Assembly: GCF_963676685.1 (NCBI RefSeq)
Contig: NC_092352.1
Location: 55,676,001 to 55,740,000, forward strand
Length of the DNA stretch: 64,000 bases
From: Mytilus edulis
Lineage: Eukaryota
Direction of reading: 5' to 3'
Both the position numbers and the translations under genes were made by a program. Positions 1-34,169 of the stretch are shown piece by piece (the first letter of the stretch is position 1; each line of letters begins with the position of its first letter). The notes beneath the pieces are model-generated. The model searched no databases, had not been told where the DNA came from, and was given only the letters and a program-made list of their open reading frames with translations.

Positions 1-1895
1 TAATTTTGCGATCGGCAAATTTTGACAGATCTTTATTTTGTGATCGTCAAATTTTGACAGATGTTTTTTGGCGATTGTCATATTTTGACGGACATTACTC
101 GTTCATTCGTCAGAATTTGACAGAAATTCTTTTGCTATCATTTTAATATGACAGACAGCCATTTTTCTAACAGACTAACAGAAATAAATGGTCAAAACGA
201 TATTCTCATTTGACAAATTTTATTGAACTTCAGGCAATCTAAAAGTAAATGGAATGTGTTCAATAATTAATAATAATTTAAATACCCTGCACAGTTAGAT
301 ACCGTTCAACAGAAACATGGGGAGGGGAACCAGAATTAAATATGCTAAAAAAAAGTATCAAGCCTCAGTGGCAGATCCAGTGGGAGTTGAACCCCTTTGT
401 TTGATGATCAATGCATTTGAATGGGGACATACATGTGGTTTGAATCTCCCCTTTTTTAAATGGCTGGACCCACCCCTGAGTCTTCAAGGCAATTAAGAAT
501 ACTTAAGTAAAATGTTGGGTTCCATAATGCCTAAAAAAAAATAAAGTTTTATTTGCTTGATGGTGAGATGAAACACCACCTTCTACTCATATACAAACAT
601 AAGATGTGGTATGATTGCCAATTAGACAACTCTAGAGCAGAGACCAACAATGGCAACATTCTACACCTGTATATATATATATTTTTAGGTACTTCTTTAA
701 TTGACATGGGGGATCTTGTGAAAGTTAAAGGTAAATCTGCGCAATATAGACTAAAACTGAAAGAAGAAAATCCTCTAAAATATTTAAATTATCTTGAAAA
801 ACAACGCCAAAGAGCCAAAAAAACTAGAGAAAATCTAAAAAAAGAATTGAAGAAAAAACAACCATCTGATGAAGCAAAAAAACAAAAACATCGACAATTA
901 GAACAACAAAGGCAAAGGCAAACTAATTACATTGAAAGAAAGAAATCAGAGAATATAAACTGGAAACCATGGAAAAAAAAGAAAGTTGCAGATACACAAA
1001 CCAGAAATGCAATAAAAAGTCGACAGCAATACAATCGTGATAAAAAAAGATTAGATTGGATACGAAAAAAAGACAGAGAAAGGAAAGCTGTAAAAAGAAA
1101 ACATAAAGGGGAAGATGCTGATTCCAAGATCAATAAAAGAGGTAAGCAAGCTAGTATTAATGCATTCAGTTCAAAACAAACAGAATGGAACGTAACTACA
1201 AAGGTAAGAACTGCATTGCCCAGAACACCAATAAAATTTGCCAAAATTGTAAAGAATTTTGTGCAAAACACCACTCCAAGGGAAGAGGAGATTGATGGAA
1301 AAAATTGGAATCAAAACTAGTAGAATTAGATTGAATGGCATCCCTACAGACCTCAATAGATCTTCAGAGGGCAAAACTGCCCTTTAAACAATTGCTAAGT
1401 CCCTTGTTGATGAAAGCAAACGATTTTTGAGTAGAACATTGAAACTTAATAAAAGAACAGTTACTAGAGTTATTTCAAAGTTGGGGAAAAGAAATGGTAC
1501 CATAGTGGGTAAAGAGCGCAAACAGAACTTTTACAAAAGAGAAGATATCGCAAGGATACTACCTCAAAAAAAAATTTGCTACCAAAGATTGCCCTGGGTA
1601 TGGTATGCAAATTTCCGTGAAAGCAGCTCATTTAAAATACGGTACCTGGCAGAAAATCATGCAAAGCCTGTTAGCCTAAGACCTAAAAATGTACGTATAC
1701 TGTCAACATCAGATACAAACTTTTGGTATTTAGCAGGACTGTGAAAGATTCCAGCAAAAAGAAAACAGGTGAAAAGGATATTTTGGATATACATGTACTT
1801 TTATGCAGCAAATCTGACAACGAGCACTTTCATAAGTTCCAGTGTATTAATGTTGAATGTTCAATATGTAATAACTACAATAGGACACTCCAGCT

Positions 1896-2232
1896 ATGAA
1901 GTTGAAGTCCAATCAACTTGAAACTTAGTACACATGTTCCCCATGATATGATCTTTCTAATTTAAATGCCAAATTATAGTTTTGACCCCAATTTCATGGT
2001 CCACTCAACATAGAAAATGATAGTGTGAAGCTCAGGTTTAAGTTTTTGGTCAAGGTAGTTTTTGATGAAGTTAAAGTTACATCAACTTGAAACTTAATAC
2101 ACATGTTTCCTATGATATGATCTTTCTAATTTTAATTCCAAATTAAAGTTTTGACCCCAATTTCACGGTCCCCTGAACATAGAAAATGATAGAGCGAGTG
2201 GGGCAAACGTGTACTATGGACACATTCTTGTT
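1896..2232 (+). repeat. 3' part of Helentron/HINE-like non-autonomous element (same family as 55828-57005 and 60308-60765)
   Basis: gaagttgaagtccaatcaacttgaaacttagtacacatgttcc units and end gcgagtggggca...ggacacattcttgtt shared with the other copies. Confidence 0.75.
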
Positions 2233-2635
2233 AAGCAAGGGTTCCGGGCAATTATCTGGCAAAAACCATACATCTTTGTATGCTCAGTACTCTGATGAAT
2301 TTGATCCATCCCCAGTCTTAACACCAGCAGTTGAAAGAAGAATATATTGCAAAGAACTCATGGAAATAGTAAAACCTGGCAGATACATGGGGATTTGGCA
2401 GATGTTTTGTTTGGCATCTGTTTTAAAATCAAAAGTCAGATCAGTGTATTCCCTCTATGGTAGTGGAATGGTTCGAGAAGATCTGAACCGCTTCATTTTC
2501 CCAAGAGATATTAGCGTTTGTCTTGAGAATGAAATCTGTATTATGTGGTCTCACATACATGGCTGCAATTTTGATAGAAATTTGTCGAGACCAAATCATT
2601 TTGTGGTAACTCAATTCGGGAAATTGATGTTGTGA
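2233..2635 (+). pseudogene. Vertnin-like (OTU-like cysteine protease fold) C-terminal fragment inside the transposon relic
   Basis: ELMEIVKPGRYMGIWQMFCLASVLKSKVRSVY...DLNRFIFPR...ICIMWSH...RPNHFVV. The first ~47 nt of the ORF-track ORF (2186-2232) belong to an inserted repeat. Confidence 0.55.
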
Positions 2636-3242
2636 TGGACTCTGAGTCAGAATCTGAAGAAAACTGGAATGTTGGAGTGGCTGAAATCCTGGACCATCTG
2701 GAGGATACTGAAGGCAAACCATTGCTTGATATAAGTCTTGAATTCTGAGGTTAGATATACATATTTAACTAGGAAGAAAAACGGATGTAGGGTACATTTT
2801 GTAAACTTCAATGAGACAGCAACCCAACAACAAAACCAAATGGGGCTTTTTATAGAAGATGACTACTGTGGATGCATTATTATTCATGGGATACCAAATT
2901 TTGAGGGTATCTAAGTAAAAAACAAATTTAAATGTTAACCGCGTCACAAACTTTCTATAAGGTTGTATGTAGACTTTTGTTAAACCATGAAATTTGGTAT
3001 CCACGAAAAATAAATGAATCCACAATAACTGAGTATACTGTATGGGGTTTTATCATTGTTGAAGGCTGTACATTGACCTATAATTGCCAATTTTCACTGA
3101 TTTGAACTCTTGTGGATAGTTGTCTCATTGGCTATCATACCCCTATATCTCTTTTTTTAATACGGAGGATACAAATGCATGTCAACACGAGAAACTGTTG
3201 TATTAGAACAAATTTACAAAAAACAGGTACACAAAAGACGAG

Positions 3243-3504
3243 TTTTGTCTATATGTTTACAAAATCATTGATTAATCAGTCTTTATGTTTTGTCTATATG
3301 TTTACAAAATCATTGATTAATCAGTCTTTATGTTTTGTCTATATGTTTACAAAATCATTGATTAATCAGTCTTTATGTTTTGTCTATATGTTTACAAAAT
3401 CATTGATTAATCAGTCTTTATGTTTTGTCTATATGTTTACAAAATCATTGATTAATCAGTCTTTATGTTTTGTCTATATGTTTACAAAATCATTGATTAA
3501 TCAG
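3243..3504. repeat. 45-bp tandem repeat, ~6 near-identical copies
   Basis: Unit ttttgtctatatgtttacaaaatcattgattaatcagtctttatg; explains the 15-aa repeat in ORF 3112-3507. Confidence 0.95.
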
Positions 3505-3527
3505 TAGAGTAGCACATAACTATACAT

Positions 3528-3775
3528 AAAATTGAGAATGGAAATGGGGAATGTGCCAAAGAGACAACAACCCGACCATAGAGCAGACAACAGCAGAAGG
3601 TCACCAACAGGTCTTCAATGCAACGAGAAATTCTCGCACCCGGAGGCACCCTTAAGCTGGCCCCTAAACAAATATATACTGGTTCAGTGATAATGAACAC
3701 CATACTAAACTCCAAATTATACACAAGAAACTAAAAGTTAAAATAATACAAGACTAACAAAGGCTTCTGACTTGG
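3528..3775 (+). repeat. Interspersed SINE-like/short repeat (aaattgagaatggaaatggggaatgtg... family)
   Basis: Same head sequence recurs in degenerate form at ~8134-8200. Confidence 0.55.
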
Positions 3776-5224
3776 GATATTAACTTAACCAATGTTGTAC
3801 ATGTAGCAACCATAGTTCTAATGCTAGCTTTATCTATATATAGCAAATAAGGTGAGATAGTAAGTAAATTGTATATTGCTTCTATGTTACTTCCTGTTTA
3901 GATAATTATAAAACAAGTGACAAATTATATATTGCGTTAATCAATGATATTAATTTATATAAATATAGAGTTATAAATGCAAATGATTTTAGTCAATAAT
4001 TTTTTTTCTTTACAGGTGAAGTTTTTAGAATGGGCCTCAGAAGATCTTTGACTAACTACATGGACAATGAAGAAAACAAATTTCTGTCAATAATTTTTGT
4101 TATAATGATATCATTAAATTGGATTCAATGCAAACTGAGTAGATCTTGTTCTGAATTTTTTTTTAAATATATGTATTATACATGTTATAGGCTAAAAACT
4201 TTTTAGTAACCAGTGATTGTGAGGAAGATTTGACTGTAACATTTAACAAGCTTTTTCAGACCAGTTGCTCTTTTCACAAAAGTTTTACGACTAAAATAGA
4301 TTTTCAGTTATACTGAAAAGTTAACGATTTAGAAGTACTTTTTCAAGTAAGATTTTTTGTGAAATGAGTTGCAAAAACTTCTTTAATACGGTACTTAGCA
4401 AATTAAGTTATTTTATTTCTTGATATAAAGAACAAAAAAATATGTTCCAAAAAAATGGACTTCATCTGAAGCCACCCAATTTTTACAGGGTCTTTGTCTT
4501 TAGTTCTTTAGTATTGAGTGTCAATTGTTTGTTGTTGTATGAGATTGTCTTCCTATTGTTTGGTTGCTAATTGCTTTACGCCTCAGCATAACCTTCTTTT
4601 TGACATTTCGGCTGTGAATTTTATGCTTGCGAATAGCATTTTATACCTCTTTTATGTTAACAAAGAGCATTCCGTAACATATTATGATAGCAAATTTCAA
4701 TCCGTCAACATTTTATGTTATTGAATATTGTTCTGTCAGTACTTTAAGTTAGCAAAAAATATTCCGTCAATATTTTATGTTAGCAACTTTTTGTCCGTCA
4801 AATGCTGACATTAACACTGCATTTGTCAGTCAAAAAATGACATTAGCAATATACAAAAATCAATCTTTTTCTCTTGTACCAAAATCTCTATTTATGATGG
4901 ATTGTTATATAGCTTATCTATAGAAGTAAAAACAACTTTACTCAACTTTAAGCAAAACTATCAGAGTTTAATGGCATAAATGTTCATTTATATTTGTTGC
5001 TAATGTCATAAATTCTGTCAAAATGTCTGTCAAAAATGACTTTAGGAACAATTTTTTTAATTTGTTAAATAAAAGATTATTATTGTGGGAATAAATTTTC
5101 TTTTTGCATATTTTGATAGTGTACCTTATTTTCTACTAATTTGTCAAAAACAAAAGTTAAAAAAGTTAACAAAAAAAAATCATTTTCAAGGTAGTTGTTG
5201 GTGCACTTTTAAATGGAAGATGTC

Positions 5225-5450: not shown

Positions 5451-6501
5451 TGAAGATTACAATGGATTTATGACAAAATATATGGTCAATTTTCATAATA
5501 TACTGTAAATTGAGAAATTATTGACAGGTTTTATTAATGCAAATAATGCAACTTGATGATTATCATAATACTTGTAATATATATATGAACTTGCATTCTG
5601 ATATCTATTTGTTTTAGTTTTTTGAAATGCCAAATGTATGCTTGCATTTTTGATATAGGTTGACCTTGATAAAAAGTAAAATCACAAAAATACTGAACTC
5701 AGAGGAAAATCAATTCGGAAAGTCCATAATCACATGGCAAAATCAAATAACAAAACGCATCAAAAACGAATGGACAAGAACTGTCAAATAGAAATGATAA
5801 GGTTGTTTAATATATGAATATTAAATGAAAATGTAGAATTCACCATTGAGACATTAAAACCAAAATGAAAATATTGTATGCATATTCAGAACAAGAACAA
5901 ATTTACTATAAATACAAAAGATGGTTCTGTTAGCAATAATATTTAGTTGCTTACAGTAACATATTATTTTCTCTTGCAATACACTATATCATTTTATTTA
6001 TAGCACAGAGTTTATTCAATTTAAAGAATATATACTATAGTGACTAAACATGTCATAAACATAGCAGCATCTACATATATATACGAATGTAACTAATTTA
6101 ATTCGACGTAACTGCGCTCACCTTCAACACTAATACATTTAAATGTCAAACTTTATGTAGTATCATAAAAACCTACTCATAAAAAACAGCCAAAACAATT
6201 CTCGTGCCTTTATATGCACCTAAAATCAAACTTTATAAATATTATGTACTGTTGCAGAACTAGTTAACTAGTTCCCATCTATATATTTTTACTATGAATA
6301 GCAAACAGGAAAGACCCAATTTCAAATGAAATGAAATATATTTATGTATTAAGCTGTGTATCACCTTCACTGGTGATCCAATGGATGGATCTGTAGTTGA
6401 GTTGTCATTAGTTTAGACTTACATATGAATTATATATGTAATTGACTGAAAATTATTGTATTGGTTTTCATATCTCTTCTTCTATTTTTTTTTTCACTTA
6501 G

Positions 6502-9500
6502 AATTTAGTCTGATGAAAAGACCAGCAGTAGAAGGTAAATATAATTATAAAGATATAATTGTTTTACTATTAGCAGAGCTGAATACATTTTAATTATTTT
6601 TCTGATATACTATTCCTCTGAAAAACAAATGCTGCACTTTTCTATTCCTGTTCTAAACAAAAACCATTGTTGAAGAATTAATTATGTTTCTACCAAACTG
6701 TTCTACTTCTGTTTTTCCTAGAAAAACATAGTGTAGGAATTGAGTATTTTTTATACCCCCGCTTTAAAAAAGGGGGGGTATACTGTTTTACCTCTGTCTG
6801 TCAGTCCGTCCGTCCGTCAGTCAGTCTGTCCCATGAAACTTTCGTCACATTTTTCTCAGGAACTACACATCCACCCTTTCTGTAATTTGGTATCAACATT
6901 TATATATGTCAGCCATACCGTGTGATGCGTTTTCAGATTCATCACTTGACAACTTCCTGTTTACCGAACACTTGTCTGATTTTACACATGATAGCCAAGT
7001 TGAAAATTTTCGTCACATTTTTCTCAGGAACTACAATACAAGGATTTCTGAAATTTGGTTTCAGGATTTATATAAGTCAGCTATACCGTGTGATGCGTTT
7101 TCAGATTCATCACTCGACAACTTCCTGTTTACCGAACACTTGTATGATTTTACACATGATAGCCAAGTTGAAAATTTTCGTCACATTTTCTCAGGAACTA
7201 CAATACAAGGATTTCTGAAATTTGGTTTCAGGATTTATATAAGTCAGGTATACCGTGTGATGCTTTTTCAGATTCATCACTCGACAACTTCCTGTTTACC
7301 GAACACTTGTATGATTTTACACATGATAACCAAGTTAAAAATTTTCGTCACATTTTTCTCAGGAACTACAATACAAGGATTTCTGAAATTTGGTTTCAGG
7401 ATTTTTATAAGTCAGCTATACCGTGTGATGCGTTTTCAGATTCATCACTCGACAACTTCCTGTTTACCGAACACTTCCATATTTTTACACTATTAATATT
7501 ATCCACTTGCGGCGGGGGTATCATCAGTGAGCAGTAGCTCGCAGTTTCACTTGTTTGCCATACTTTTCTATTCCTATTCATCACAAAATCAATTGTTGAA
7601 ATATTAATTATGTATCTGTCATACTGTTTTACTCCTGTTCTTCTTAAAATCATTATGCAGGAATCGATTATTTTTTTGCCATACTGTTCTACAAAATGTA
7701 TTCCTATTCTTCACAGAAACAATTGTGGAAGAATTAATAGATCCTTCATAAAAGAAGTTCCAATATAAAAATATTCAGTAATTTTTTACCCATTGAACAA
7801 ATATTACAGTATTTGTTCCTTAGGGAATAAAGGGTATGGAATATTTGTTCCAATAGAAACAGATATTATGACATTGTTTATATACAAAGTTTCCAGGGGA
7901 ACAAATATACGTTGGCACTGCAAGCAAAGACATTTATGGATCAACATACAGATTTCAACAATAAACAAAACTCTATACAATGCATACATTTCAAGCTCTG
8001 TATTGACCAGAAATCATCATATTTGTTGTTTTATCCTTTCTCTAAATTCTTTTTTCCATAGTTACAAATCTTATACAGAAACCAGCAGACATTTTACCAG
8101 AAACTAAAGGTAAATATAACTTTAAAAAAATGAAATTGAGAATGGAAATGGGAAAGTTTCAAAGAGAAAACAACCTGACAAAAGAGCAGTTTACAGCCAA
8201 ACCTTATATAATGTATGGTTATAAAAACAGATCACACACATTTAAAAACATACAAATTGTTGTGTCAGATGATCGTTTCATGCCTTTAAAAAAAAACATT
8301 GTAGAAAATTGATTATTTTCCATTGCACATTGAACATCCTTCAAAATGATATATGACTATGTATTAGATGTCAAAATTCAATAATGTCATCAAATGTCTG
8401 CATTCCTCTGAATTTTCTATTGTGATGTCATGAAAATAGGCCACCATGTCTGGTGATGTCATATTGAAGGAACACAACTTTCTGTAGATCATTCTAATAG
8501 AAGGATTGAAATTGTCTATATTTTGTCATTAGAGAAACAGATTTCACCACCAAATATCATATTACAAATGATGTAGTCGTACAATCTATTTTATACAAAT
8601 ATGCAAGATGTAATTTATACAGCCATTATGCTTATGCTTTCTTTTACTTTTTTTCCTAGTAACAAATGTTATACAGAAAACAGCAGAAGTTTTACCAGAA
8701 ACTAAAGGTAACTATGTCTATAAAAAACTATTTCATGGTTATAATAGAAGATCTCACACATTTAAAAACCTACATTGAACTAATGATTCAACTTTCAGTG
8801 GCCTAGTGTTACCGTTCCACGTCAGTAGAATCTAGAGTTGTAACATGATATATTAGGCATGAAGATGGAATTGATTGCAGGTTTGCTAAATAACTGTCTT
8901 AACCCTTTCCTCCATTGATTTATATTTTTCCATACTTGATTGACATAGGAATTTTTCAATAAAAAAAATCTTCAGGTTTAAAGTATTAATGCATTGTGAA
9001 AACGAATATTTCATCAACGAAATTCCAGTCAGATTTTCTTATGAATATCCTTTTTATATTAGATACAAATTTGATTATGTCCGATAAAGTTTTTTCTTAG
9101 GTAAGACATTTCAACTGAGGCACTACACAGGCATCAAAAGGCGTCCTTATGAAAGACAGGGTTAAAGGACAACTCTGCGATAGATCCATCCTTTGGTATA
9201 ATTTTTTGCAGATTTAACTTTGTTACGTTAATATCAACAGTAATTATGGAAGCTGGCTTGTCATGTTTTGGATTTTTTGACAGATTTTCGGAATCCTCTG
9301 GTTTTATCCATTTGAATGCCTGGAAAAAATTTGCCCGGTGACCCCCATTTTTCTTTCTATAAATCTTTTACATGTATAATGATAAGCAATCTGTAAAAGT
9401 CTTATAAAATTTTAATTACTTTTTAACAGTTTTTGAGAACTTTAACTTGTCAATGATAAAGCTATGAAAAGTCAAGAGAGAATATTTTCCCGCCAAAATT

Positions 9501-12500
9501 TCAATGGCATATATCTCGAAAACAAGCACAGCGACCTATATATTTTTTTTGCTCTTTGGATTCCTTTAATAACCCCCTATCTATATAAACTAGTGTTTTG
9601 AAAAGTTAATTACTTTGAAACTGAGAAGCGAACTCCCTTATGTATATAATATATGTATTTCAGCTGTGTGTCACTTACACTGGTGATCCAATGGATAGAT
9701 CTGTTGTAGAGTTGTCATTTGTTCAGACTTACATATATAAAGTATATATATTGACCAGAAATTATCATATTTGTTTTCATATCTTTTCTTCTATTTTTTT
9801 TTTTATATAGAATTTGGTCTGACGAAAAAACAAGCAATAGCAGGTAAATATAGTTATAAAGATATAATTGTTCTATTTGCAGAGCTGAACACATTTTATT
9901 TTTAAAATGTATCAAAATCATGTTTAGAATGACAGATATGTGTTTCAAATATTTGTTTTTAATAGTTTGGCTTTTTTGAAGGACCTGTATTATTGAAACT
10001 AAAGTATAAATAAGAATGCATAATTTAACATTGAGACAGAAAGCAAGCTTTCAATCATTATGGCAAATATTATGTTCATATTCTGGAAAAAGACAAACAA
10101 TAGTTGGTACTGTTTTGGGGAATTAATGGATCCTTCATAATACAATTTCTGAGTAAAAGAAATATTTTGAAATATTTTTCCATGTAATAAAGTGCATACA
10201 ACATTGTTCCAACAGAAACAGATATTATGACATTGTTTATAATAAATTTTCCAGGGGAAAAATAAATTTTGACACTGCTAGCAAAGACATTTAGATGTCA
10301 AAATTCAGTTCAACAATATACAAAACTCTGTACAATGCATACATTTCGAGCTCTGTATTAACCAGAAATCATTATATGTGTTGTCTTATGGTTTCTTTTA
10401 CTTTTTTTTTATAGTAATATGTCAAATAATGAACACAGCAGAAGATTTATCGAAAACTGGAGGTAAATAATATTTTAAAAAACTACTGTATGAGATCTCA
10501 CACATTTAAAAGTATATAATATGTGGCGATGATCTTTTCATGCTTCTAAAAAAAAACATCGTAGAAAATTGATTGTTTTCCTTCAAACATTGAAGATCCT
10601 TCAAACATTGAAGATCCTTCAAAATGATATATGATTATGTATTAGATGTAAAATGCAATTATGACATCAAATTTTCTTGCATTCCTTTGAATTTTCTATT
10701 GTTAAGTCATGAAAATAGGCCACCATGTCTGATGATGACAAACTGAAGGAACACAATTTTCTGTAGATCATTCTAATAGAAAGATAAAAATTGTCTGTAT
10801 ATTGTCTAAAAATCATTAGTGAAACAGATTCAACCACCAAATATTCTATCACATTTGATGCAAAGAGGGTGCAGCACTTTTAAATGTAAATGTATTTAGA
10901 AAGCAAAAGATTTTGTGCAATTTCGATACCATAATTCATGCACATGATCAAACAAATGATACCAAACTATTTTAATAATTTTTAATTAAGGTTCATTGTG
11001 AAATCATTGAATAATTCTATAGTGTGTATCAATGCTATTTTATAACAAACTCCCTACTATAAAGTATTGTACAAATTATTTATGTGAATTTTAGTCAAAT
11101 TTTGTACAAATTGAAATTTGTACCTAAGCACTTTTTAATCATGATTTGTACAAAATGTTAACTTGTACACAACATATAAAAAAGGACATATGGTATGATT
11201 GCCAATCAGCTAATAAATAGAAGGACCTTAGTTTCTGATGAATTAGAAACACTTTGAAATGAAATATTATCAGAGCTATGCAAAAAATTATTTCATGTTG
11301 TTTTTATATTGTAGGACAAAAGAAATTCGATACATTTGTTGGGGTTCCATTCAAAATAAGAAGTAAGTTCCTTATAAATACAACACAAATTAACTTTAAG
11401 GATATACTTAGGTCAGGTTTAGGAATTTGTGTCAGATGTTCAGACTTATTGTTTTAATGCCCCAACTGGGGATTAAGTTTTACCCTTTTCCATCTGTATG
11501 TACGTCCTAAAATTGGTTTCCAAACCAAATGTTATGAAACTTATACACAATGCTTATTACCACAAAACACAGATCAAGTTGGAATTTTGGTACCGTCAGT
11601 ATAACAGTTTAAGAGTAATGCTTCTCTATAAATTGAAAAATTGCTAAAAATTTAGTTTCTGTTCTCTCACTCAAGTTTGCCTAAATCAAATGTTATGAAA
11701 CTTATACACAATTGCCTATGACCCCAAAACACAGATCAAGTTAGAATTTCGGTAGCATCACTTAAATGGTTCTAGAGTTATGCTCCTTTATAAATGGAAA
11801 AATTGCTAAGTTTTTAGTTTCTGTTCTCAAACTTTAAGTTTGCCTCAACCAATTATTATGAAACTTATGCACAATAACTATACTATTACCACAAAATACA
11901 GATTAATTTGAATTTTACTTGGGGTCACTGTAACCATTTTCGAGTTATGCCCCTTTATAAATGGAAAAAAATAAAAAATGTTTAATTTCCGTTCTCTAAC
12001 ATGTTGCCTCAACCAAATGTTATGAAACTTGTACACAATGCTTATAACCTTAAGTTTGCCTCAGCCAAACATTATGAAACTTATACACATTACTTATGAC
12101 CACAAAACTCAAATCAAGTGCAATATGGGTTTTTGTTCTCAGTAATGTCCCTTTATGATGTTCAGTGTTCTAGCTAGGCCATTTTCAGAGGGCGCAGCGC
12201 CCGCCCTTTCCCAAATGCTGCCCTGTGCCTTTTTTAGTTTCCAGGGCGCCCTGCCTATTTTGAAGATCGATTGTATATTATTTTGTTCTAATTGATAAGA
12301 TCCGCTAATTACTAAATTTAACCTGGCGAAAAGTTTATGACTTTGTTTACGATCCCAAGCTAATCAACGGTTACAACTGATGTCATAATCTGTTGTTAAA
12401 GGTAATCTGTTTATCAGATGGGTCATTAATGATCTTCAACATTAATTCATTCAAATAGAATCAGTCAGTCAGCAGATTATCTGTGAGGAAATATCCATAC

Positions 12501-15500
12501 AACAACTTGGGCACAATTTGCAATGTTTACCGTAGTTTCATGGAGAAAACGTAATGCCAGAAAGTTGAAATCCACAAACAACTCGTGGAAGACTTTGTTT
12601 TACTTGTTCTTCGTGAAATAAATAGCAAATTCAGACCTTTGTCATTGACTGCCCTTATTTTTTATACGAAAATAACAAAATCGGCCACCATATTGTTGAT
12701 CATACTGTGAAAGTACTTTAATTCGTCGGTATCAATATTCGTGGTTTGAGCAATATTAAGATGTTCGTGAGTTCTCTAAAAAAAAAACACGAAAAATTAA
12801 AGCCTTTAGAAAAGAAGGTTACAACTAGTCTGGATTGAAGGAAATTTCAAAGTAAACATTGACCCGTGTAAATCGTTGTGACAACACTTATTAACCCAAG
12901 GTTAAGTGATCAACTGATTAAGGACCATCAAAGGTGTTAATTAGGCCATAAACATGTCATCTAAAGAAAACAGTAACATAAACAAATGCTATAAACGTAT
13001 TTGAATTGTCAAATAATTCTTATCAAAATCAAGCCCAGCATTAAATGATTATTTCCCATATGTACGAGAACTATGAGGATATAAAATGAACACTTTATCA
13101 TACAAGCATATCAATACCGGACATCTGACTTTCATCGAAAAAAAATATTTCTATGAGAATAAAAAGATCAAAAGTTGTTCAGTTTAGGTTATTAAAGATA
13201 ACATGGGTATATTAATCCTGCATGCAGTTGTAGTTCTGTGACTGCTATTTGATTTCACTCCAGGTTTTTAGTGGAGTTCCTGTTGTTTCTTAATTATTAT
13301 TTATAACTGTTGATGTAAATGTCCTTTGGTTTTGTGAGTCTTTCATTACTCCTTGGTTTTGATTGTTATTGTCTATTAAAGTATTCTCAGATTCGAGGTT
13401 ATCCAATATATTCTCTAGATCATTTCAGTAGTCAAACCTTCATGGGGATCTTTCCATGTCTTGATTTGGACAATGGTTGTTTTATTTCGTTGGACACTTA
13501 AAATCGTGGATAAAGTCATCCATGAAAACCACGAAAATTGGTGCCCCACGAATAAAAGTACTTTCACACTTATTTACATATCTTCTTCTCAATGTTTATA
13601 ATCCTCCAAAGAAGGAGCACACCTGTATAAAGAAAGATACTCAATCTAATTTTTTTCCAAGCATTGAGTAACCCACTTAACATATTCTAAAATATGTGTA
13701 CATACTTCTTGCTTAAGAATATATATGTTTAGGTATTTTGAGTTATGGGAAAAGTTAAAGATGCTATTAGTAGCAGTGCTGGTAGGGTGCCTTGGTCATC
13801 TTTTTCTGTTTTCTTTATTTTTAATACAAATTTTCACTGTTGCTATATCCTAACATTTACTGACCACAGCTGTTTTGTGCTGTATTGCCATTAAGCACAT
13901 CAGAGGAAGAAAGGTGAAACTGGTAAAGTGTGTCAGACCATAGAAACAGAATGAAGCAGGACACCTTTCAAAACATGCTGCATATAAAGCTTAACTGGGC
14001 CAACCAATGATTTAAAAACGTGTGTGACAAGCTGCTTGACAAGTTTTTCAGCCTAAAAAGTAGAAAGATAGAGTTCTATATGGGCTAATGATGTAGTTCT
14101 TGTATAACCAGTGATTTCAACGAATAAACACAATGTTTGATTTATATCTTTAATAAAACATGCCCTTTTCATAATATCATATCACGCGTTAAATGCCCTT
14201 TTTCAGGATTGGCACCCTGCCCTTTGAAATCCTAGCTGGAACACTGATGTTGTATGCAAGCGGGGGTATCATCTGTGTCCATGGGGACACATTCTTCATT
14301 TTTTTCTCTTCTGGTCAACCTTTCTCAACCAGTGGGAATCCGACGATAAGGTATTAATTTGGCGTGGCCTAATGTATCTTTCAATAAATTATGATAAACA
14401 ATTTGAGAAAAAATGAATATAAAAAAAAATATCTTAATGTTAAAAATATATACAAAACACATTAAATAAATAAAACTGACAAAAATTAAGTATCTTATTT
14501 GTTTCATTTATTTTTCATTAGGTCTTACCATTACTGATTCCATTCCTGTATTGGCCTCAGGGATGCTTGCTTGTAGGATATGTCCAAAACAATTTTGGCA
14601 TCTTGATAGTCTACTTCAACATCATGACATGGAACTTCCTGAAAAAAGGACCGACTGTGGCCACGTAATGTCTCAACTTGATTGTCATGTGTGCCTAAGT
14701 AGGATTGATAATTGGATAAGTGCAACCGACAGTATCATATGTTTTTGTGAAACTTGTGATAAGACCTATACATCTCTCCTTCAATTTAATCATCATGTGA
14801 TCCTACTCCACGGGGAGCAAAAACAATGCATTTTTTGTAAAAAAGACTTTTTTCGTAAAAGAGAATTTAGAGACCATGTTTGTGAAAGATTGAAAAAATT
14901 AAATTATAGCTATAAGATGGATAAGTTTGCATTTTGTTATAAGATGGATGTACCTTTATTACAAAAACTAGCAAAGCGGAAAAAGCTAAATGTTCAAAAA
15001 GTTAAAGGAAGTAGTGATACAAACAATGGTATAATTAGTAATAATTATGAGGCTGAAGGTGACAACTGTACACATAAATTAGCAGAAAATGACAATACAC
15101 ATTATTTAGCAGAAGGTAGCAATGGTACATGTTATCTAGCAGAAGGTGGCAATGGTAAACAATATCTTGCAGAAGGTGGCAATCGTACACATTGTCTAGC
15201 AGGAAGTGGCAATGGTACACATTATCTAGCAGGAGGTGGCAATGGTACACATTATCTAGCAGGAGGTGACAATGGTACACATTATCTAGCAGGAGGTGAC
15301 AATGGTACACATTATCTAGCAGGAGGTGACAATGGTACACATTATCTAGCAGGAGGTGACAATGGTACACATTATCTAGCAGGAGGTGACAATGGTACAC
15401 ATTATCTAGCAGGAGGTGACAATGGTACACATTATCTAGCAGGAGGTGACAATGGTACACATTATTTAGCAGGAGGTGACAATGGTACACATTATCTAGC

Positions 15501-18500
15501 AGGAGGTGACAATGGTACACATTATTTAGCAGGAAAGAAAAAGAGAGTAAACACAAAAGACAGTGCAACCAAGATTGTGAAAACTCCAAGTGAATTATTC
15601 ATGAGTAGTTACACTCTAACAGATAGCGAAAGTGAAAAAGAAACATATATTGTCAGAAGAATTAACAATGAAGCAGAGGCTGTCACTAGAATTAACACTG
15701 AGGCAGAGATTGTAACTAATAGTAACACTGAAGCATTGATGGTCGCTAATAGTAACACTGAAACAGAGATGATCACTAATAGTAACACTGAAGCATTGAT
15801 GGTTGCTAATAGTAACACTGAGGCAGAGATGGTTACTAGAATTAAATCAGAAGCAGAGATGGTCACTAATAGTAACACTGAAGCAGTGATGCTCACTAAT
15901 AGTAACACTGAAGCAGTGATGGTTGCTAATAGTAACACTGAAGCAGTGATGGTTGCTAATAGTAACACTGAAGCAGTGATGGTTGCTGATAGTAAAACTG
16001 AAGCAGAGATGGTCACTTATAGTAACACTGAAGCAGTGATGGTCACTAATAATAACACTGAAGCGGAGATGGTCATTGATGGTAACACTGAAGCAGAGAT
16101 TAACACTGATAGTAACACTGAAACAGAGATTGTCGCTAATAGTAACACTGAAGCTGAGATGGTCACTAGAATAAAAACTGAAGCAGAGATGATCAATTAT
16201 AGTAACACTGAAGCAGAGATTGTCACTAATAGTAACACTGAAGCAGAGATGATCACTAATTGTAACAATGAAGCTGAGATGGTCACTAGAATTAAAACTG
16301 AAGCAGATATTGTCACTTATAGCGACGCTGAAGCAGAGATTGTCGCTAATAGAAACACTGAAGCAGATATTGTTTTTAGAAGTAACACTGTTCTTGAAAA
16401 TTTTGAAAGTCATACCCAAAATAATGAGATTCAACTTCAAGATTCATTAGTTAAAGATCAGATAAAAACAACACATGTCAATTGTTTCTGCAGCCCATGC
16501 AAAGTATTGTTTACTTCTCTTAAGAAGTTAAATGCACATGCTTGGTTTGTACACACACAGAGACAATGTGTGATTTGTCATACATATTTTACAAATCACT
16601 TATGTATGTGTAATCATGAATGTGCTAGAGTGATTTTACAAATGAAAATTAATCCTATGAGTCAAATAGTTTTACATTTTGGGTCAGAAGATAAAATATT
16701 AGAAAAAGTCAGAGGGCATGGCAATCAATGGTATGTTTTTGTTAAAGACAATCCCATGACATTAGAAGAGACTAAAACTAAAGATTTACGTTTACCATGT
16801 TATTGCAGAACATGCAAAATAGGGTTAATTTCTCTTTCTCAATTAAACAATCACATCTATGATGTGCATACAACAAGAGCAGAGTGCATATATTGTAAGA
16901 TGGATTTTAATTCAACTGAAGAAATGGGCGATCATTTTTGTGAAAAATTGAAAACAAAGTTGAAGGAGAACATTTTGACTGAAATTACTGCATGTCCTTG
17001 TTTGGAAACTTACGACAAATATAGCAGAAGAGGAGTTGAAATGATAACCTTGCCATGGCTAAGAATGTCAGCAAAGACTCTACGACAGCTTGCAGAGGAG
17101 AAGTTAGATAAGGTCGGAAAAAGACTATTTATAAAAAAGACTGATGAACAAAAAAAAGAGATATTAAACGAAATTTTGACAAAGAAAAAGAAAAAACTAT
17201 TTTCTTGTTTTGAAAATTCCAATAGGGTACAATTTGTCAAAATGAAAAGGGAACAATTTGTCAAAAAAAACTGTCCAGTTTGCTCTAGGATTTTTTTTGG
17301 GACATCTAATCAAAGTCTTTATGAACATTTTTATAAAAAACACCAAAAAGACACAAAGTACTGTCGTTTTTGCCAACAGGCATTTTTTGCTGACAATCAT
17401 GAATGCAAGAAAGAAAAAGAAGAAAGTTATATGAATAGGAAAGAAAATAAGAAAATAAAAGAAGAACTAGTTGGAGAAGAAAGCATCAAGTTGCAAAAAT
17501 GTCCACAATGTTCATATATAAAAAACTTCTGCAAAGAAAACATTCATAATCAAACTTGTACTAGAAAAGCTTGTCTTTCTTGTGAAAACTGCAGGGAATG
17601 CGAAGGTAAAAACTGTTTTTACTGTGGAAAAATTTTTCATTTTGAAAGTTTGACCTGGAGACATGTGGAAAAAAAGCATAGGTCAACAAAAACCGGTATT
17701 TTTCATTGTTATTTATGTAACATTACAATCAACACTTTAGAACAATTACAACTTCATGTAAAGACTGTTCACCCTCTCGTGGATGCCTTGAGCATTTATC
17801 GTAAAAAAACAAAATATAGACAATGTCGCCGTAAAAAAAAGAGCATTGAACAAAGATTAGCAGATGCTAAAAAGCAAAGGAAGAAATATCAGGAAAAACA
17901 CAAAGATAGGTACAAATGTGAGGTTTGTCAAGAAAAGTTCACTTACTATATTATGCTGAGGAAGCATATTGCAAATGAACATGAAAGGGAAACTTTTGGC
18001 TGTAATATATGTAACATGCAGTTTAAGCATAAAAAAACATTAGAAAGACACCAAATGAAGGGACATTTGCAAGTATGTGAAAAAGAGAAACCTAAACATA
18101 CCTGTTTTGTTTGTGACAAGAAGTATTCGACTTCGAGAAGTTTGAGAAGACACAATTTCAAGGAACATTTAATCGAGGACAAACATATTTCCAAGTTGAG
18201 GGAAAATGTTGCTTGTGAGCAATGTGGTAAAATTGTGATGAGAAAGTGTATGAGGTTACATTTACTGGTTCATCAAGAAAAAGAGTTTATGTGTGAAGAT
18301 TGTGGAGAGAAGTTTCGTAGACCTGATGATTTGAAAAGGCATAGGCAAAAACATTTAAGGAAAAAATATGTGCTCAAGTCCGAAACATCCGGGTATAAAT
18401 GCTTAATATGTGGGTTGATTTTATCTACCAATGGTGCAATAAAAAGACATTTTAGTTTGAAACATTCAAGTGAAAAGATTGCTATACCATGCAAAATCTG

Positions 18501-18729
18501 TGGCAGATTATATGCAAGTAAACCTGTGTTAGATATACACATGAAACTGAAACATTCTGAAAAATCTTTCCAATGTGAAATATGTAATAAGAAATTCTAT
18601 TACAATTACCTGCTTAAAAACCATGTAAAGATCGTTCATGAAAATTATAAGCCTTTTCAGTGTGACATTTGTAATTTCAGGTGTTATATGAAATCTGCAC
18701 TTGTATCACATATGAAATACAATCATTAA
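6502..18729 (+). CDS. Large multi-C2H2 zinc-finger protein with micro-exon-encoded N-terminus and two internal 10-aa repeat tracts (true start uncertain, possibly upstream)
   Basis: Terminal exon 14522-18729 (acceptor ttttcattag|GT, same frame as ORF 14551-18729) with many CxxC...H..H fingers (e.g. CEDCGEKFRRPDDLKRHRQKH, HENYKPFQCDIC). Upstream AG/GT-bounded phase-1 micro-exons 6502-6534, 8062-8109, 8660-8707, 9811-9843, 10415-10462 and 11315-11362 all splice in frame without stops. The terminal exon is certain; the micro-exon joins are predicted. Confidence 0.8.
6750..7553 (+). mobile_element. Helentron/DINE-1-like non-autonomous element (HINE) with ~170-bp central tandem repeats
   Basis: 5' ttttatacccccgc subTIR plus inverted partner ggggggtata, (GTCC/GTCA)n microsatellite, ~3.5 central units, 3' gcgggggtat subTIR and hairpin gtgagc-agta-gctcgc before cttgtt. 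Confidence 0.8.
8903..9161. mobile_element. piggyBac-type MITE
   Basis: TTAA|CCCTTTCCTCCAT ... ATGAAAGACAGGG|TTAA (imperfect 13-bp TIR, TTAA on both sides). Confidence 0.6.
11452..14297 (+). mobile_element. HINE-like element interrupted by a hAT-type insertion
   Basis: Central repeats (caaatgttatgaaacttatacacaatgcttattaccac) at 11520-12120; 3' end gcgggggtatcatc-tgtgtcc-atgg-ggacaca resumes after 14246. Confidence 0.65.
12163..14246. mobile_element. Non-autonomous hAT-like element with 5-bp TSD (hAT5-like), containing a nested TACTGT-type MITE (~12703-13570)
   Basis: TIR CAGTGTTCTAGCTAGG / CCTAGCTGGAACACTG; ATGTT duplicated directly on both sides. Inner inverted repeat tgtgaaagtacttt...aaagtactttcaca. 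Confidence 0.7.
14522..18729 (+). CDS. Terminal ~4.2-kb coding exon of the C2H2 zinc-finger gene
   Basis: Open 1392-aa reading frame with clustered C2H2 fingers; stop TAA ending at 18729. Confidence 0.92.
15050..15535 (+). repeat. Coding 30-bp minisatellite encoding (GGDNGTHYLA)n, ~16 copies
   Basis: Unit aggaggtgacaatggtacacattatctagc; near-perfect in the middle, degenerate at the 5' edge. Confidence 0.95.
15655..16390 (+). repeat. Coding 30-bp minisatellite encoding (NSNTEAEMVT)n, ~24 diverged copies
   Basis: Unit aatagtaacactgaagcagagatggtcact. Confidence 0.95.
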
Positions 18730-21237: not shown

Positions 21238-21897
21238 CCTTGAATGATGACTTTTTTTTTACCTTCTTGTATTTTGGGCAAAACTAAAGAAGATGGAGAG
21301 AAATTGTAAACTAAAATAATATCAGATCAACTGAAAGGGATTTTTGTCATGAAATCTATTCCAGCCTACCTTGAATGATGACTTTTTTTTTACCTTCTTG
21401 TATTTTGGGCAAAAACTTTAAGAAGATGGAGAGAAATTGTAAACTAAAATAATATCAGATCAACTGAAAGGGATTTTTGTCATGAAATCTATTCCAGCCT
21501 ACCTTGAATGATGACTTTTTTTTTACCCTCTTGTATTTTGGGCAAAAACTAAAGAAGATGGAGAGAAATTGTAAACTAAAATAATATCAGATCAACTGAA
21601 AGGGATTTTTGTCATGAAATCTATTCCAGCCTACCTTGAATGATGACTTTTTTTTTACCCTCTTGTATTTTGGGCAAAAACTAAAGAAGATGGAGAGAAA
21701 TTGTAAACTAAAATAATATCAGATCAACTGAAAGGGATTTTTGTCATGAAATCTATTCCAGCATACCTTGAATGATGACTTTTTTTTACCCTCTTGTATT
21801 TTGGGCAAAAACTAAAGAAGATGAAGAGAAATTGTAAACTAAAATAATATCAGATCAACTGAAAGGGATTTTTGTCATGAAATCTATTCCAGCCTAC
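21238..21897. repeat. ~132-bp tandem repeat, 5 copies
   Basis: Units start at 21238, 21369, 21502, 21634 and 21766 (ccttgaatgatgactttt...ctattccagccta). Confidence 0.95.
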
Positions 21898-22289: not shown

Positions 22290-22652
22290 TCTTGGTTTTC
22301 ATTTGATTGTTGACCTTTTTTACCTTGTTGTCTAAAAAGATAAATAATTTTACATATAAGTTTTTTGTATTCTATGTTACCATTTTTTCTCTGTTGTATT
22401 TCAATGTCATTTTGGTTTTCATTTGATTGTAGACCTTTTTAACTTTGATGTCTAAAAAGATAAATAATTTTTCATACAAGTTGTTTGTATCATATGTTAC
22501 CATTTTTTCTCTGTTGTATTTCAATGTCATTTTGGTTTTCATTTGATTGTAGACCTTTTTAACTTTGATGTCTAAAAAGATAAATAATTTTACATGCAAG
22601 TTTTTTGTATCATATGTTACCATTTTTTCTCTGTTGTTTTTCAATGTCATTT
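22290..22652. repeat. 120-bp tandem repeat, 3 copies
   Basis: ttggttttcatttgattgt...catatgttaccattttttctctgttgtatttcaatgtcattt repeated; explains ORF 22372-22650. Confidence 0.93.
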
Positions 22653-25600
22653 TATCATATCAAAGTTGATTTTACACAGTAAAATATGAATACATGACCT
22701 TGAATGAGTTGTCAAGGGAATTTATTCCTTCCTGTTAAACTGTGTATACTTGTTTTAATTTAACATTGTATAAGTTGACTGCTATTTTGTATTTTATGTA
22801 TGTAAGAATGTATTTGAATAAAAGAACAAGAGATTGATGAACTTAATGGTGTGTTAAAACATAAAGAATAGAGGATAATAGGCATAAATATGAAAAATAC
22901 AAATACATTTTCCTATATATTTGGAGTATGCAAAAATGAAGGACCCCTATCAAAACTATAGTATTATCATAAAAAAAATCAAACTTTTCAAACTGAAAGT
23001 TGACATCATGAAGACATACAATAAATGCAAAGTTTAAAATGAAAGTTAGAACAACAGATCGTAGATATAGGAAGATGTGGTATGAGTGCCAATGAGACAA
23101 CTCTCCATCCAAGTAACAATTTATAAAAATAAACCTTTATAGGTCAAGGTACGGCCTTCAACATGGAGCATTGGCTCACATCGAAAAGCAAGCTATAAAG
23201 GGCCCCCTAAAATTACTAGTGTAAAACTATTCAAACGGGAAAACCAACTGTCTAATCTATATAAAAATATTTGATTGATTGATTGGTTGGCTGCATAACG
23301 TCCAGTTGCAAATATTTCATGCATGTTTAGGGCGAAGATCATACAGAAAAGCAGGGAAAGTTGGGAAGTTCTCGAGTAAAATGTATAATGAAACTGAGGC
23401 TAAGATTCAAAGTTTTTTTGCACAGTTTTAAATTTCTTGAAGAAAACAAAAGTATGTTTCTGCAGAATTAGTAGGAAAAATTGGTATTACTGTTATAGTT
23501 GACTAAAACTTGTCTCCTGTTTATCTTAAAAAGTAATTCCAGTAAAGGACAGAATTGAACAAACACATTATCTTACTAAAAAACAAAAAGTCCGAGGAAA
23601 AAAATTATAATATGTCATATTAAGCACGAAAAAAGTGACCCATGAGATGAAAAAGTTGAGGTCCTCATGAATTTTTGCAAGGGAAAATTCTTGATAGCAT
23701 TGAAACGATTTAGCTGTTACAAACATAATAAACATGGATTTTTATAACATAAAAACATCAATTGTTTGACTTTTAGGGTCAATGTCATTTTCCATGGTAC
23801 CAACACCCAAAAAGCGAAATAAAATATAGCTAGTACAAAATAGTATGAAAAGCAGCACCGGAATAAATACTACTAAAACGTAAACTCCCTGTCAATGTTA
23901 GACATAGTTCGCCGAATGGGAGACATACTAAAAGCACCATTGAGTTTTGTGTCCGTCACCTAAAACAATTTGGGTTTCTACTTAAATAAATGTTTCGATG
24001 TGCAAAGAAAATTAATGCCCAATTGTCTGCACAAAGATCTGATTTTCGTGCTCCAATCTCATTTGATGGGTGGGCTTTCGGTAGGATATCATTATTTTGG
24101 AGCCAACCAATTTGAAATGATATGGTCTGTGCGATAAAAACGGAGGCATGACACTTGAGGGACAATCAAACGTCTAGGAAAACGGACTTTAACATACTAC
24201 AAAGTAAACTATCCACAGTACATCACAAACACCACCGAAATCCGAGTGTGAGAATGGTAAATCATACCCTGCTGCACATATGGCACCCTTTCATATGGAA
24301 AGTACATATTCGGTCTAAAGATATGCACTGTAAATTAAAAGGACCACATATTTAAACTTGAATAATCTAGCTCTTAACTCTTAATTTAACGTTAGTCTTG
24401 CCTTTGTTAGACTTGTATGATTTTTGTCTTTCCTTGAAGGAGCCAAAAAGCGAGACATAGGTATGCTGTTTCCGGCGTCGGCTGCGGCGTCAACATTGTA
24501 TTAGTATGTTATTAGGTCTAGTTTATGGGGAACTACAGGTGGTAGGTCAATGATGTTTGGTATTTCTAAGTTCTACAGGCTTATTATTCTTTGCTCTATA
24601 TGAAAAAAATGTTACAAACAAAATAAACCATATTTTTTTTACTTTTACAAAATTACCAAAACAAATGCATGTAAGGATCAGCGAAAACATGACAATAATA
24701 AAGAGCTGCGCCGTAAGCGCATGATACGCTCGTCGTATATATCAAAGAATAAATTCCAATTAGTAAATAAATCCTCAATGTCATAGCAGAAATTTAAAAA
24801 TAAATTAAAGGGAGGCTATTTTGAAAAATATTGCAAATGCCGATATTAAACTCGACAAGCCTCTAAATAAACACTTTTTGTAGGGTCGAATACAACTCGA
24901 TATTGGTATGACTGTGTAGCAACAAGATGATTCATTCTGATCTTGACATTTGAAAATGGTTGATGGAGGCATTTTAAGATTGGGTTGGGTCTGAAACAGT
25001 GGTCTCTTTACAGATCTTTACAGTGCACACTTTGGAAAATGGTTGACTATTATGATGACCCCTATATCAATGCCGCTTAGGAGAGATACAGGAAATTCGA
25101 ACTATCTTTGACAGATGTTTGAACCCATGACCTCCCACAACTGATAGAACAGGCATTGCTTAGGATCTGGATACAGGGTAAACAAAGTTAAGATGTTAGA
25201 TGTAGCTAGGTGGAAAATGGTATTCGGGGAAATGAGCCCGCCCCATCTGCCGTATATCACCTGAATATGACCTCATTTCAGGATCTAGTGATTAGTCGGG
25301 TTAGTTTCTGAATCCGAGACTACTTTGACACAGTTTATACATCTTCGCTATCCAAGGGATTTAGGCCCGTGAACTAAAAATAGATATAATGCATATTGTT
25401 TTTATGTTATGAATATGGTTTGTTTTTTGTACTGTTTAACACGCCAGGATTTCTTTTTTTGCAATACAGTTTTGCCTTAATATTTCACTGGACCACAAAA
25501 TATAAATAAAATTTAAGATGCTGATCGATTCCATAAAAACCGATTCATATTTCGCGCCACGAATTGAATTGCATTATTTCCCTTTCATCCTCACAACAGC

Positions 25601-26320
25601 GTAAACAAAAAGATCTTTTATGTTGTGAAGGTGTTAACTTGCTTCACAAAGACGAAAATCTGTTCTAATTTAAAGGTAAGTATTAATTTCTGGAGAAGTG
25701 GAAATGAAGTTTAATTTTCTAACGAAATATATTGTAAATCACATACAATGTAATGCTTAAAATACGGTTGCATTTACAAAGGTACATGAGGTAGGTTATT
25801 TCCCTTTAAACATTAACTCGACTAAAAAAGATAATATTGTAGAAAACTAAATTTGCAAATATCAAGCGCTCATGATTTAATATCATGACTTATATGCACC
25901 AGCATTGATATGCTACGGATCGCTACTTAACAGGCATATTTATACTACTAACTAAAAAAACTATTTTGTCATTTATGTCTGGAATAACTGCAAATATCTT
26001 TCTGACATCCAAAGCTTTTCAGTATGATACAGAGGGTATTTTTTTTTGGGGGGGGGGGGGGGGGGGGGGAGAGCAAAAAACACCTATTAGACCTATTAGA
26101 CAAAAAGCTAATTTTCATTAAAAAAAAAACGGAAGATATTTATGTTGGCTGTTCTGATTTTGCAGAAAAGCCATACTTATTCTTAATTGTTAACATGATA
26201 AATATATCTGGTATACCGGCATTTGAATTTGCCTTTTACATATCTTTTCAATTCAGACCTCATCCGATTTATTAAAATACTCGTCATCATGTGATTTTAC
26301 TTTCAAGCTTTATTTTTCAG

Positions 26321-33307: not shown

Positions 33308-34169
33308 TATGAAAAATCTGAAGAAAAAAAAACTTTAGCATATATGTTGTTATACATCGTGAACTGGTAATCTATATAGCTAATAATGAAGAAAAAACAT
33401 CATGGAGTGGAAAGGACCGCTCCCTACAACTCTTTCATCATTTTTTAATTTCAGTTGCACGAGCACGTGAAAACGATTGTCCATTTTGAGAGAAAATAGG
33501 GGGACATGTAAGAAATGCATGATCTGTGTGCTTAAGCAAATGCATAGTGCACTGGCAATATTCAAATGTTGTCTATGAACCTGGCTGCTCTAGTAAGTAC
33601 GGATTTTGTGACTGAAGATCGGTGAACAAGGGTTTTAAAACACGGGATCAGTCACGTGAAACAAAATTAGTTGATGCATGAACCAAGTCAGGAATATGAC
33701 ATTTGTTGTCCATTCGTTTGATGTGTTAGAGCTTTTTGATTTTGCTATTTGATTTAGGATCCTTTAGGACTTTCCGTTTTGAGTTTTCCTCGGAGTTCAG
33801 TATTTTTGTGACATTAATTTTAATAGTGTACATGGTGTAATCAAATAATGTTTTGTCGTTTCGGTCTCATTATCGTGACCATATATTAGTGAACGATAAA
33901 TACATTGACAACGATCGATGTGATGATGATTGTGACTATGATGACGAAAAGGGTCGGTATATTTCCAACGCTGCTTTCCAATCTAAGTGAGAAATTTATA
34001 AATCGTGAAAGCGTCCCAGTTACTGGTTGGCTAGATATATAGCAATAGCTCCTTCTCAAACACTCAGTTTTACCATGTTCAGTTTATGCCAATAGTTAAC
34101 GTTCAATATTATAACTCAACAAAAGCAGATGGTTTCACTGCACTATCGTATTAGGAAAAAAAGGAGTTC

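What the first reader, a model, noticed from the sequence alone, without database searches (positions are those of the whole stretch)
6502..14560. Hidden array of frame-symmetric micro-exons (33/48 nt) feeding a giant zinc-finger exon
Seen: six AG/GT-bounded segments with polypyrimidine tracts (6502-6534, 8062-8109, 8660-8707, 9811-9843, 10415-10462, 11315-11362). All are multiples of 3, phase 1-1 and stop-free, reading EFSLMKRPAVE|VTNLIQKPADILPETK|VTNVIQKTAEVLPETK|EFGLTKKQAIA|VICQIMNTAEDLSKTG|GQKKFDTFVGVPFKIR|SLTITD... into the 14522 exon. Five of the six arose by duplication of whole intron-exon blocks (~6340-8590 resembles ~9650-10860; partial extra copy ~8620-8775), and paralogous exons differ at many amino-acid positions while splice sites and lengths are kept. 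Inference: any subset can be skipped without frameshift. This is the micro-exon-gene (schistosome MEG-like) logic, here attached to a putative transcription factor and allowing combinatorial N-termini. None of it appears in the ORF track.
Basis: partly seen in the sequence, partly recalled or inferred. Interest (0 to 1): 0.7.

Follow-up and report, generated by a model that had tools for sequence, protein, structure and literature searches.

The report
Duplicated mini-exons in mussel zinc-finger gene
Six tiny exons in the middle of a mussel zinc-finger gene are real and are spliced one after another in the RNA examined; they likely arose by copying of exon-plus-intron blocks and change amino acids unusually fast, but they do not behave like a mix-and-match cassette.

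Summary
The six segments are real exons: AG/GT-bounded, 33/48 nt, phase 1-1. Spliced reads show all six consecutive junctions. They are not hidden or N-terminal. They are coding exons 15-20 of a 21-exon gene starting about 31 kb upstream of the window, whose exon chain translates exactly to RefSeq XP_071132719. Combinatorial skipping is not supported. In three RNA libraries from one study, no skip junction among exons 2-6 reached 3 reads, against 5-32 reads per consecutive junction. All 9 of 9 M. edulis isoforms keep all six exons; 2 of 6 M. galloprovincialis models skip exon 2. The annotated alternative exons lie just upstream: two 54-nt duplicates and a 453-nt exon inside a DNA transposon. 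The array is young, since M. californianus appears to have three exons where this gene has six. It is the fastest-changing part of the protein (43 amino-acid-changing against 5-6 silent changes, omega 2.1-2.5, P 0.025-0.052), which means relaxed or possibly positive selection. It fails schistosome MEG membership. The scan noted similar arrays on other DNA, not this gene.

The parts
689..1141 (+). Alternative 453-nt phase 1-1 coding exon (exon 14 of 21; net charge +32), lying inside a DNA transposon
   Evidence: In 4 of 9 RefSeq isoform proteins and 5 of 6 M. galloprovincialis VDH models; boundaries; not tested with reads
1..5224 (.). Terminal-inverted-repeat DNA transposon (starts 1466 bases upstream of the window, G000:C9:55674534); right 26-bp TIR at 5199-5224
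   Evidence: Perfect 26-bp inverted ends and an independent insertion of the same family in the E4-E5 intron of paralogues
6502..6534 (+). E1, 33-nt phase 1-1 exon (exon 15)
   Evidence: E1>E2 loose ends 21 and 25 reads
8062..8109 (+). E2, 48-nt phase 1-1 exon (exon 16); skipped in 2 of 6 M. galloprovincialis models
8660..8707 (+). E3, 48-nt phase 1-1 exon (exon 17), short-block duplicate of E2
9811..9843 (+). E4, 33-nt phase 1-1 exon (exon 18), paralogue of E1
10415..10462 (+). E5, 48-nt phase 1-1 exon (exon 19), paralogue of E2/E3
11315..11362 (+). E6, 48-nt phase 1-1 exon (exon 20), unrelated to E1-E5
14522..18729 (+). Last coding exon (4208 nt): C2H2 zinc fingers plus two 30-nt tandem arrays (15057-15534, 15663-16367)
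   Evidence: E6>14522 reads
6336..8573 (+). Duplicated intron-exon block 1 (E1+E2 region), 80-84% like 9644-10860, interrupted by a 168-bp tandem element at 6836-7490
9644..10860 (+). Duplicated intron-exon block 2 (E4+E5 region)

Best explanation
The six segments are real, internal coding exons of a 21-exon Mytilus zinc-finger gene and are joined in series in the RNA examined; they likely arose by repeated tandem copying of small phase 1-1 intron-exon blocks and likely form a loosely constrained spacer, not a combinatorial cassette. Shown: splicing in series, position, block similarity, four tandem gene copies, excess of amino-acid changes. Inferred mechanism: a duplicated block survives only if its exon keeps the frame, so phase 1-1 symmetry is a survival filter rather than a device for skipping. 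Each copy brings working splice sites, so it is included by default. Selection keeps the frame open but cares little about the residues, so the copies drift apart fast. The protein is likely a nuclear DNA- or chromatin-binding factor. Its regulated variation likely lies in the basic exons just upstream (two 54-nt exons with a KKRKRK run, and the transposon-derived exon).
For: Consecutive joints only: one search lists 7 joints with none hidden, 4 of them the exon joints and 3 repeat noise in contigs; worst-case inclusion is 0.93/0.93/0.91 for E3/E4/E5. All six exons in 9 of 9 isoforms of this gene, 3 of 3 of the paralogue and 5 of 5 M. trossulus; the shorter array in 8 of 8 M. californianus isoforms. 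The last 10 introns are all phase 1. Block homology z 7.6-18 within the 33-nt and 48-nt families and up to 8.0 between them. All six exons keep AG/GT, length and an open frame in all four gene copies; length changes between species are whole codons. Read variants in the exons are 7 amino-acid-changing to 2 silent, near the neutral ratio. PMC8373072 (passage seen) states that most tandemly duplicated exons are incorporated in the constitutive isoform.
Against: E2 is skipped in 2 of 6 M. galloprovincialis models. E2 and E6 have lower read depth than their neighbours (E2 28-30/36-37/14-16 against E3 41/41/28; E6 32/10/16 against E5 41-44/13-20/26-27), and skips E1>E3 and E5>14522 could hide in unshown rows. 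Only three raw libraries from one study of organism B were laid, about 6% of each read, tissue unknown. Omega above 1 is more than plain drift predicts. FoldIndex does not call the six-exon segment disordered (+0.16), so 'spacer' rests on lack of a domain match and fast change.
Confidence: 0.66

Rival explanations
1. The exons are constitutive, but their residues are under positive selection: the segment is a binding surface in a molecular conflict (for example with transposons or partner chromatin proteins), and exon duplication supplies raw material, as gene duplication does for this four-copy cluster.
For: Window gene against paralogue C: 30 amino-acid-changing and 3 silent differences, 17.9 and 5.2 expected from intron rates, omega 2.9. 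Tree count 43:5 or 43:6, omega 2.5 or 2.1, P 0.025 or 0.052. Rest of gene 268:124, Fisher P 0.005. E2 against E5: 18/48 exon mismatches against 26/184 in flanking intron, P 0.0005. It is the least conserved of 8 regions against paralogue C (71%) and M. californianus (60%).
Against: With a more permissive alignment the six exons do not differ from flanking introns overall (34/258 against 413/3623, P 0.22); E1/E4 and E3/E5 are not significant. Silent sites in short exons may be held by splice enhancers, which inflates omega (established knowledge). Read variants are also mostly amino-acid-changing (7:2), as expected from relaxation. The test was post hoc and counts are small. Two other regions also have omega above 1.
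Confidence: 0.22
2. One reading: MEG-like combinatorial skipping of the six exons yields many isoforms, in tissues or stages not sampled here.
For: All exons are frame-symmetric. E2 skip in 2 of 6 models of a sister species, and three neighbouring phase 1-1 exons are alternative in RefSeq. High dN/dS is also reported for MEGs (PMC8293314, passage).
Against: No skip joint among E2-E6 in three libraries. Splice sites are strong and canonical. RefSeq resolves alternative use of the 54-nt exons yet shows none for the six in 17 of 17 six-exon isoform proteins (9 + 3 + 5). The exons are internal, 3.3% of the CDS, in a protein without a signal peptide.
Confidence: 0.1

Closest known systems
Tandem exon duplications included constitutively (PMC8373072; passages of introduction and results seen)
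   Same: Neighbouring homologous exons made by block duplication, all spliced into the main isoform.
   Different: Here the duplicates are very short, recent, genus-restricted as far as searched, and change amino acids fast.
Schistosoma micro-exon genes, MEGs (PMC4015677, PMC8293314, bioRxiv 10.1101/2023.06.21.545858; passages seen; DeMarco 2010 not held)
   Same: Run of short symmetric exons in long introns, exon and gene duplication near transposons, raised dN/dS.
   Different: MEGs are mostly micro-exons of 36 bp or less (up to 75% of CDS), secreted with a signal peptide, small (up to 189 aa), with shown skipping. This is a 2598-aa zinc-finger protein with 3.3% of CDS in the six exons and little skipping.
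RefSeq M. edulis XP_071132719-XP_071132728 (this gene), XP_071132714-18 (paralogue), M. trossulus LOC134725134, M. californianus LOC127709458, M. galloprovincialis VDH98065-71
   Same: The gene, the six exons and the upstream alternative exons are already in these automatic models.
   Different: All are 'uncharacterized'; the duplication history, the transposon origin of the 453-nt exon and the rate excess are not part of such models.
POGZ/ZNF280-type zinc-finger proteins (PF25429)
   Same: N-terminal double zinc finger at the Pfam cut-off (27.1-27.9 bits, cut-off 27), with C2H2 fingers further on.
   Different: The match is marginal, the Atlas structure hits are under the naming bar, and no other POGZ/ZNF280 domain was found. 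Orthology is not shown.

Membership tests
Schistosome MEG | Coding sequence mainly (up to 75%) micro-exons | tested here: not met
   Six exons = 3.3% of the 7797-nt CDS; all exons of 54 nt or less = 5.3%
Schistosome MEG | Exons mostly 36 bp or less | tested here: not met
   2 of 6 are 33 nt, 4 of 6 are 48 nt; another paper allows 3-81 bp
Schistosome MEG | Symmetric exons removable in frame | tested here: met
   Nine consecutive phase 1-1 exons
Schistosome MEG | N-terminal signal peptide, secreted or surface protein | tested here: not met
   Best 19-residue hydropathy in the first 60 residues is 0.35; zinc-finger domains; no dedicated predictor was run
Schistosome MEG | Many splice variants by skipping of the micro-exons | tested here: not met
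   No skip joint among E2-E6 in 3 libraries; 9 of 9 isoforms complete; one exon skipped in 2 of 6 models of a sister species. One study only; E1, E2 and E6 skips weakly tested
Schistosome MEG | Raised dN/dS | tested here: inconclusive
   omega 2.1-2.9, P 0.025-0.052; overall exon-versus-intron test P 0.22
Constitutive tandem exon duplication | Homologous neighbouring exons with homologous flanking intron | tested here: met
   (E1/E4 and E2/E3/E5; not E6)
Constitutive tandem exon duplication | Duplicates included together in the main transcript | tested here: met
Mutually exclusive duplicated exons (Dscam1 type) | Only one homologue per transcript | tested here: not met
   E2>E3 joined directly in 26/32/13 reads
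POGZ/ZNF280 family | PF25429 double zinc finger | tested here: met
   27.1-27.9 bits against cut-off 27 in P0005, P0006, P0008; marginal
POGZ/ZNF280 family | Orthology to POGZ/ZNF280 and their other domains | tested here: inconclusive
   Word-index searches return only Mytilus proteins; Atlas hits under the bar; the sensitive search never returned

The most novel reading that the evidence does not exclude
A Mytilus-specific nuclear zinc-finger gene family carries an evolutionary 'accordion' of phase 1-1 mini-exons that is rebuilt differently in each species by block duplication and transposon exonisation. It is under positive selection and is partly skipped in particular tissues: MEG-like diversification serving an intracellular conflict, such as transposon recognition.
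Probability: 0.15. Interest if true: 0.6.

Novelty: new member of a known kind. Interest (0 to 1): 0.27.

Why it matters
As it stands it is a clear, recent example of how a gene grows by copying frame-preserving exon blocks and by taking an exon from a transposon, with four gene copies and four species to compare. It also shows that exon symmetry alone is no evidence of combinatorial splicing. If the excess of amino-acid change proves to be positive selection, it would point to a fast-evolving interface in an uncharacterised mussel nuclear protein and a testable conflict. No paper on this gene appeared in the title and abstract listings; subscription journals are mostly not covered.

Tried and rejected
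N-terminal position: rejected, 14 coding exons lie upstream. Mutually exclusive use: rejected. Assembly or chance artefact: rejected. A bound on skipping alone: rejected, because 14 joints were hidden; one search was run for that reason. The two E2/E3 block rows are invalid (overlapping flanks aligned to themselves) and were dropped. The first exon-versus-intron test (P 0.02) did not survive a more permissive alignment (P 0.22). 'Disordered linker' is not supported by FoldIndex. No indexed holder was on record as RNA (no RNA holder listed). Contig run X4 did not cover the exons; X1 contigs showed 4 of the 5 joints. The search of cluster representatives stayed queued through, so range outside Mytilus is open. 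No structure or complex prediction was run. Paper searches; no supplements were read.

Full report
Observation. The six segments lie at the stated places, each between AG and GT, 33, 48, 48, 33, 48 and 48 nt long, open in the phase-1 frame; the 4.2-kb exon at 14522 also starts in phase 1. Self-comparison shows the duplicated blocks at 80-84%. A fixed splice-site rule finds five plus-strand candidates between 1142 and 14521, all of them E1-E5, against one on the minus strand and 12 in 45 kb elsewhere on both strands.

The gene. The large exon matches Mytilus proteins, and these contain the six peptides in order. Mapping RefSeq XP_071132719 on G000 gives 21 coding exons from about 31 kb upstream of the window to 18729, and the joined exons translate to that protein exactly. 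The six are exons 15-20, residues 1111-1197 of 2598, so they are internal. The last ten introns are all phase 1, which gives nine consecutive symmetric exons: 54, 54, 453, 33, 48, 48, 33, 48, 48 nt. The protein has a marginal PF25429 double zinc finger near its start and C2H2 fingers in the last exon; a pattern finds 17 finger-like motifs, 15 in the last exon. There is no hydrophobic N-terminus. A nuclear DNA- or chromatin-binding role is inferred from these domains. Reading KKRKRK as a nuclear import signal is recalled, not tested.

Splicing. Three raw RNA runs (X21-X23, one study, organism B, about 6% of each read) show on the expected strand E2>E3 26/32/13, E3>E4 32/31/29, E4>E5 30/21/23, E5>E6 25/5/12 and E6>14522 27/8/15 reads. 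Fourteen joints were hidden there, so a narrower stretch was laid. It lists seven joints with none hidden: the four exon joints and three repeat artefacts in contigs. No skip among E2-E6 reached 3 reads from 2 starts. E1>E2 appears as loose ends in 21 and 25 reads at agreement 1.0. If every run hid two skip reads, inclusion would still be 0.93, 0.93 and 0.91 for E3, E4 and E5. Limits: skips E1>E3 and E5>14522 could be among unshown rows, E2 and E6 have lower depth than their neighbours, and the tissue is unknown.

Annotated isoforms. All six exons are in 9 of 9 isoform proteins of this gene, 3 of 3 of the paralogue and 5 of 5 in M. trossulus. The variation is upstream: either or both 54-nt exons, the 453-nt exon (4 of 9), and a duplicated 111-nt exon pair. 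In M. galloprovincialis 2 of 6 VDH models lack E2 and the other 4 have it two residues shorter; a RefSeq model stops after E5. M. californianus (8 isoforms; exon limits inferred from protein only) has one 11-residue, one 15-residue and one E6-like unit, plus other duplicated basic units upstream. So the array is rebuilt between species, and modest single-exon skipping exists, but nothing like free combination.

Origin. E1/E4 and E2/E3/E5 are two families (z 7.6-18). They share weaker flank similarity with each other and with the 54-nt exon (z up to 8.0 and 4.5; several pairs are not significant). E6 is unrelated. Three further full-length gene copies lie upstream on C9, about 99.8% alike over the first 3.6 kb of CDS and about 90% like the window's gene; all keep the six exons with AG/GT and length. 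The 453-nt exon lies inside an element with perfect 26-bp inverted ends (window -1466 to 5224). The same family sits in the E4-E5 intron of the other copies, so the insertions are independent. The second 54-nt exon likely came from a recent duplication that includes the element's left end.

Rate of change. Against paralogue C the six exons show 30 amino-acid-changing and 3 silent differences; intron rates predict 17.9 and 5.2 (omega 2.9). Eight of 11 other regions give 0.35-0.61, two exceed 1 and one has no silent change. The contrast with the rest of the gene is P 0.005. A tree count gives 43:5 or 43:6, P 0.025 or 0.052. Against this: overall exon and intron divergence do not differ with permissive alignment (P 0.22), only E2/E5 is clearly faster than its intron, and listed read variants are 7:2, near neutral (93 variant rows were not shown). 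Relaxed constraint is the safer reading; positive selection is open.

Comparison. MEGs are defined by mostly 36-bp-or-shorter symmetric exons, a signal peptide and shown skipping (PMC4015677, PMC8293314, bioRxiv 10.1101/2023.06.21.545858; passages seen). This gene meets symmetry and perhaps rate, and fails the rest. It fits ordinary constitutive tandem exon duplication (PMC8373072, passages). Word-index searches found relatives only in Mytilus (one search added two weak zinc-finger-only hits elsewhere), which is weak evidence of range. Earlier scan notes describe like arrays in other genes, mostly without shown skipping; they were not tested here.

Verdict. It is a new member of a known kind, already in automatic annotation. 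Interest 0.27.

Noticed in passing
window 689-1141, inside element G000:C9:55674534-55681224: A TIR DNA transposon donates an alternative, very basic 151-residue in-frame exon; the same family inserted independently in another intron of the three paralogues. The exact 26-bp end occurs 5 times genome-wide. Superfamily not determined.
   Followed up: partly
window 8707 to 8060: Two reads in X21 run from the end of E3 through E1 into E2 (table 5c): a back-spliced circle or an allele with E1-E3 repeated. Too few to tell.
   Followed up: no
G000:C9:55251748-55302104, 55384156-55431962, 55501675-55565458: Three near-identical upstream paralogues with very different intron sizes; the first has a frameshift late in its zinc-finger exon (first stop at residue 2496). 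Real copies or partly assembly haplotypes: not tested.
   Followed up: partly
window 15057-15534 and 15663-16367: Two coding 30-nt tandem arrays in the last exon; lengths differ between copies and species, and many annotated 'isoforms' differ only by repeat units, likely alleles mistaken for introns.
   Followed up: partly
G000:C9:55654645-55665137 and paralogues: Upstream exons are also tandemly duplicated as two-exon units, in different ways in each gene copy and species, and skipped as units in annotated isoforms.
   Followed up: partly
window 26276-28348 (+) and 31553-33334 (-): Two convergent BTB-BACK-Kelch open reading frames; ordinary.
   Followed up: partly
window 3242-3505, 6836-7490, 11522-12039, 21238-21897, 22292-22653: Tandem repeats in introns or downstream DNA; ordinary repeats.
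   Followed up: no
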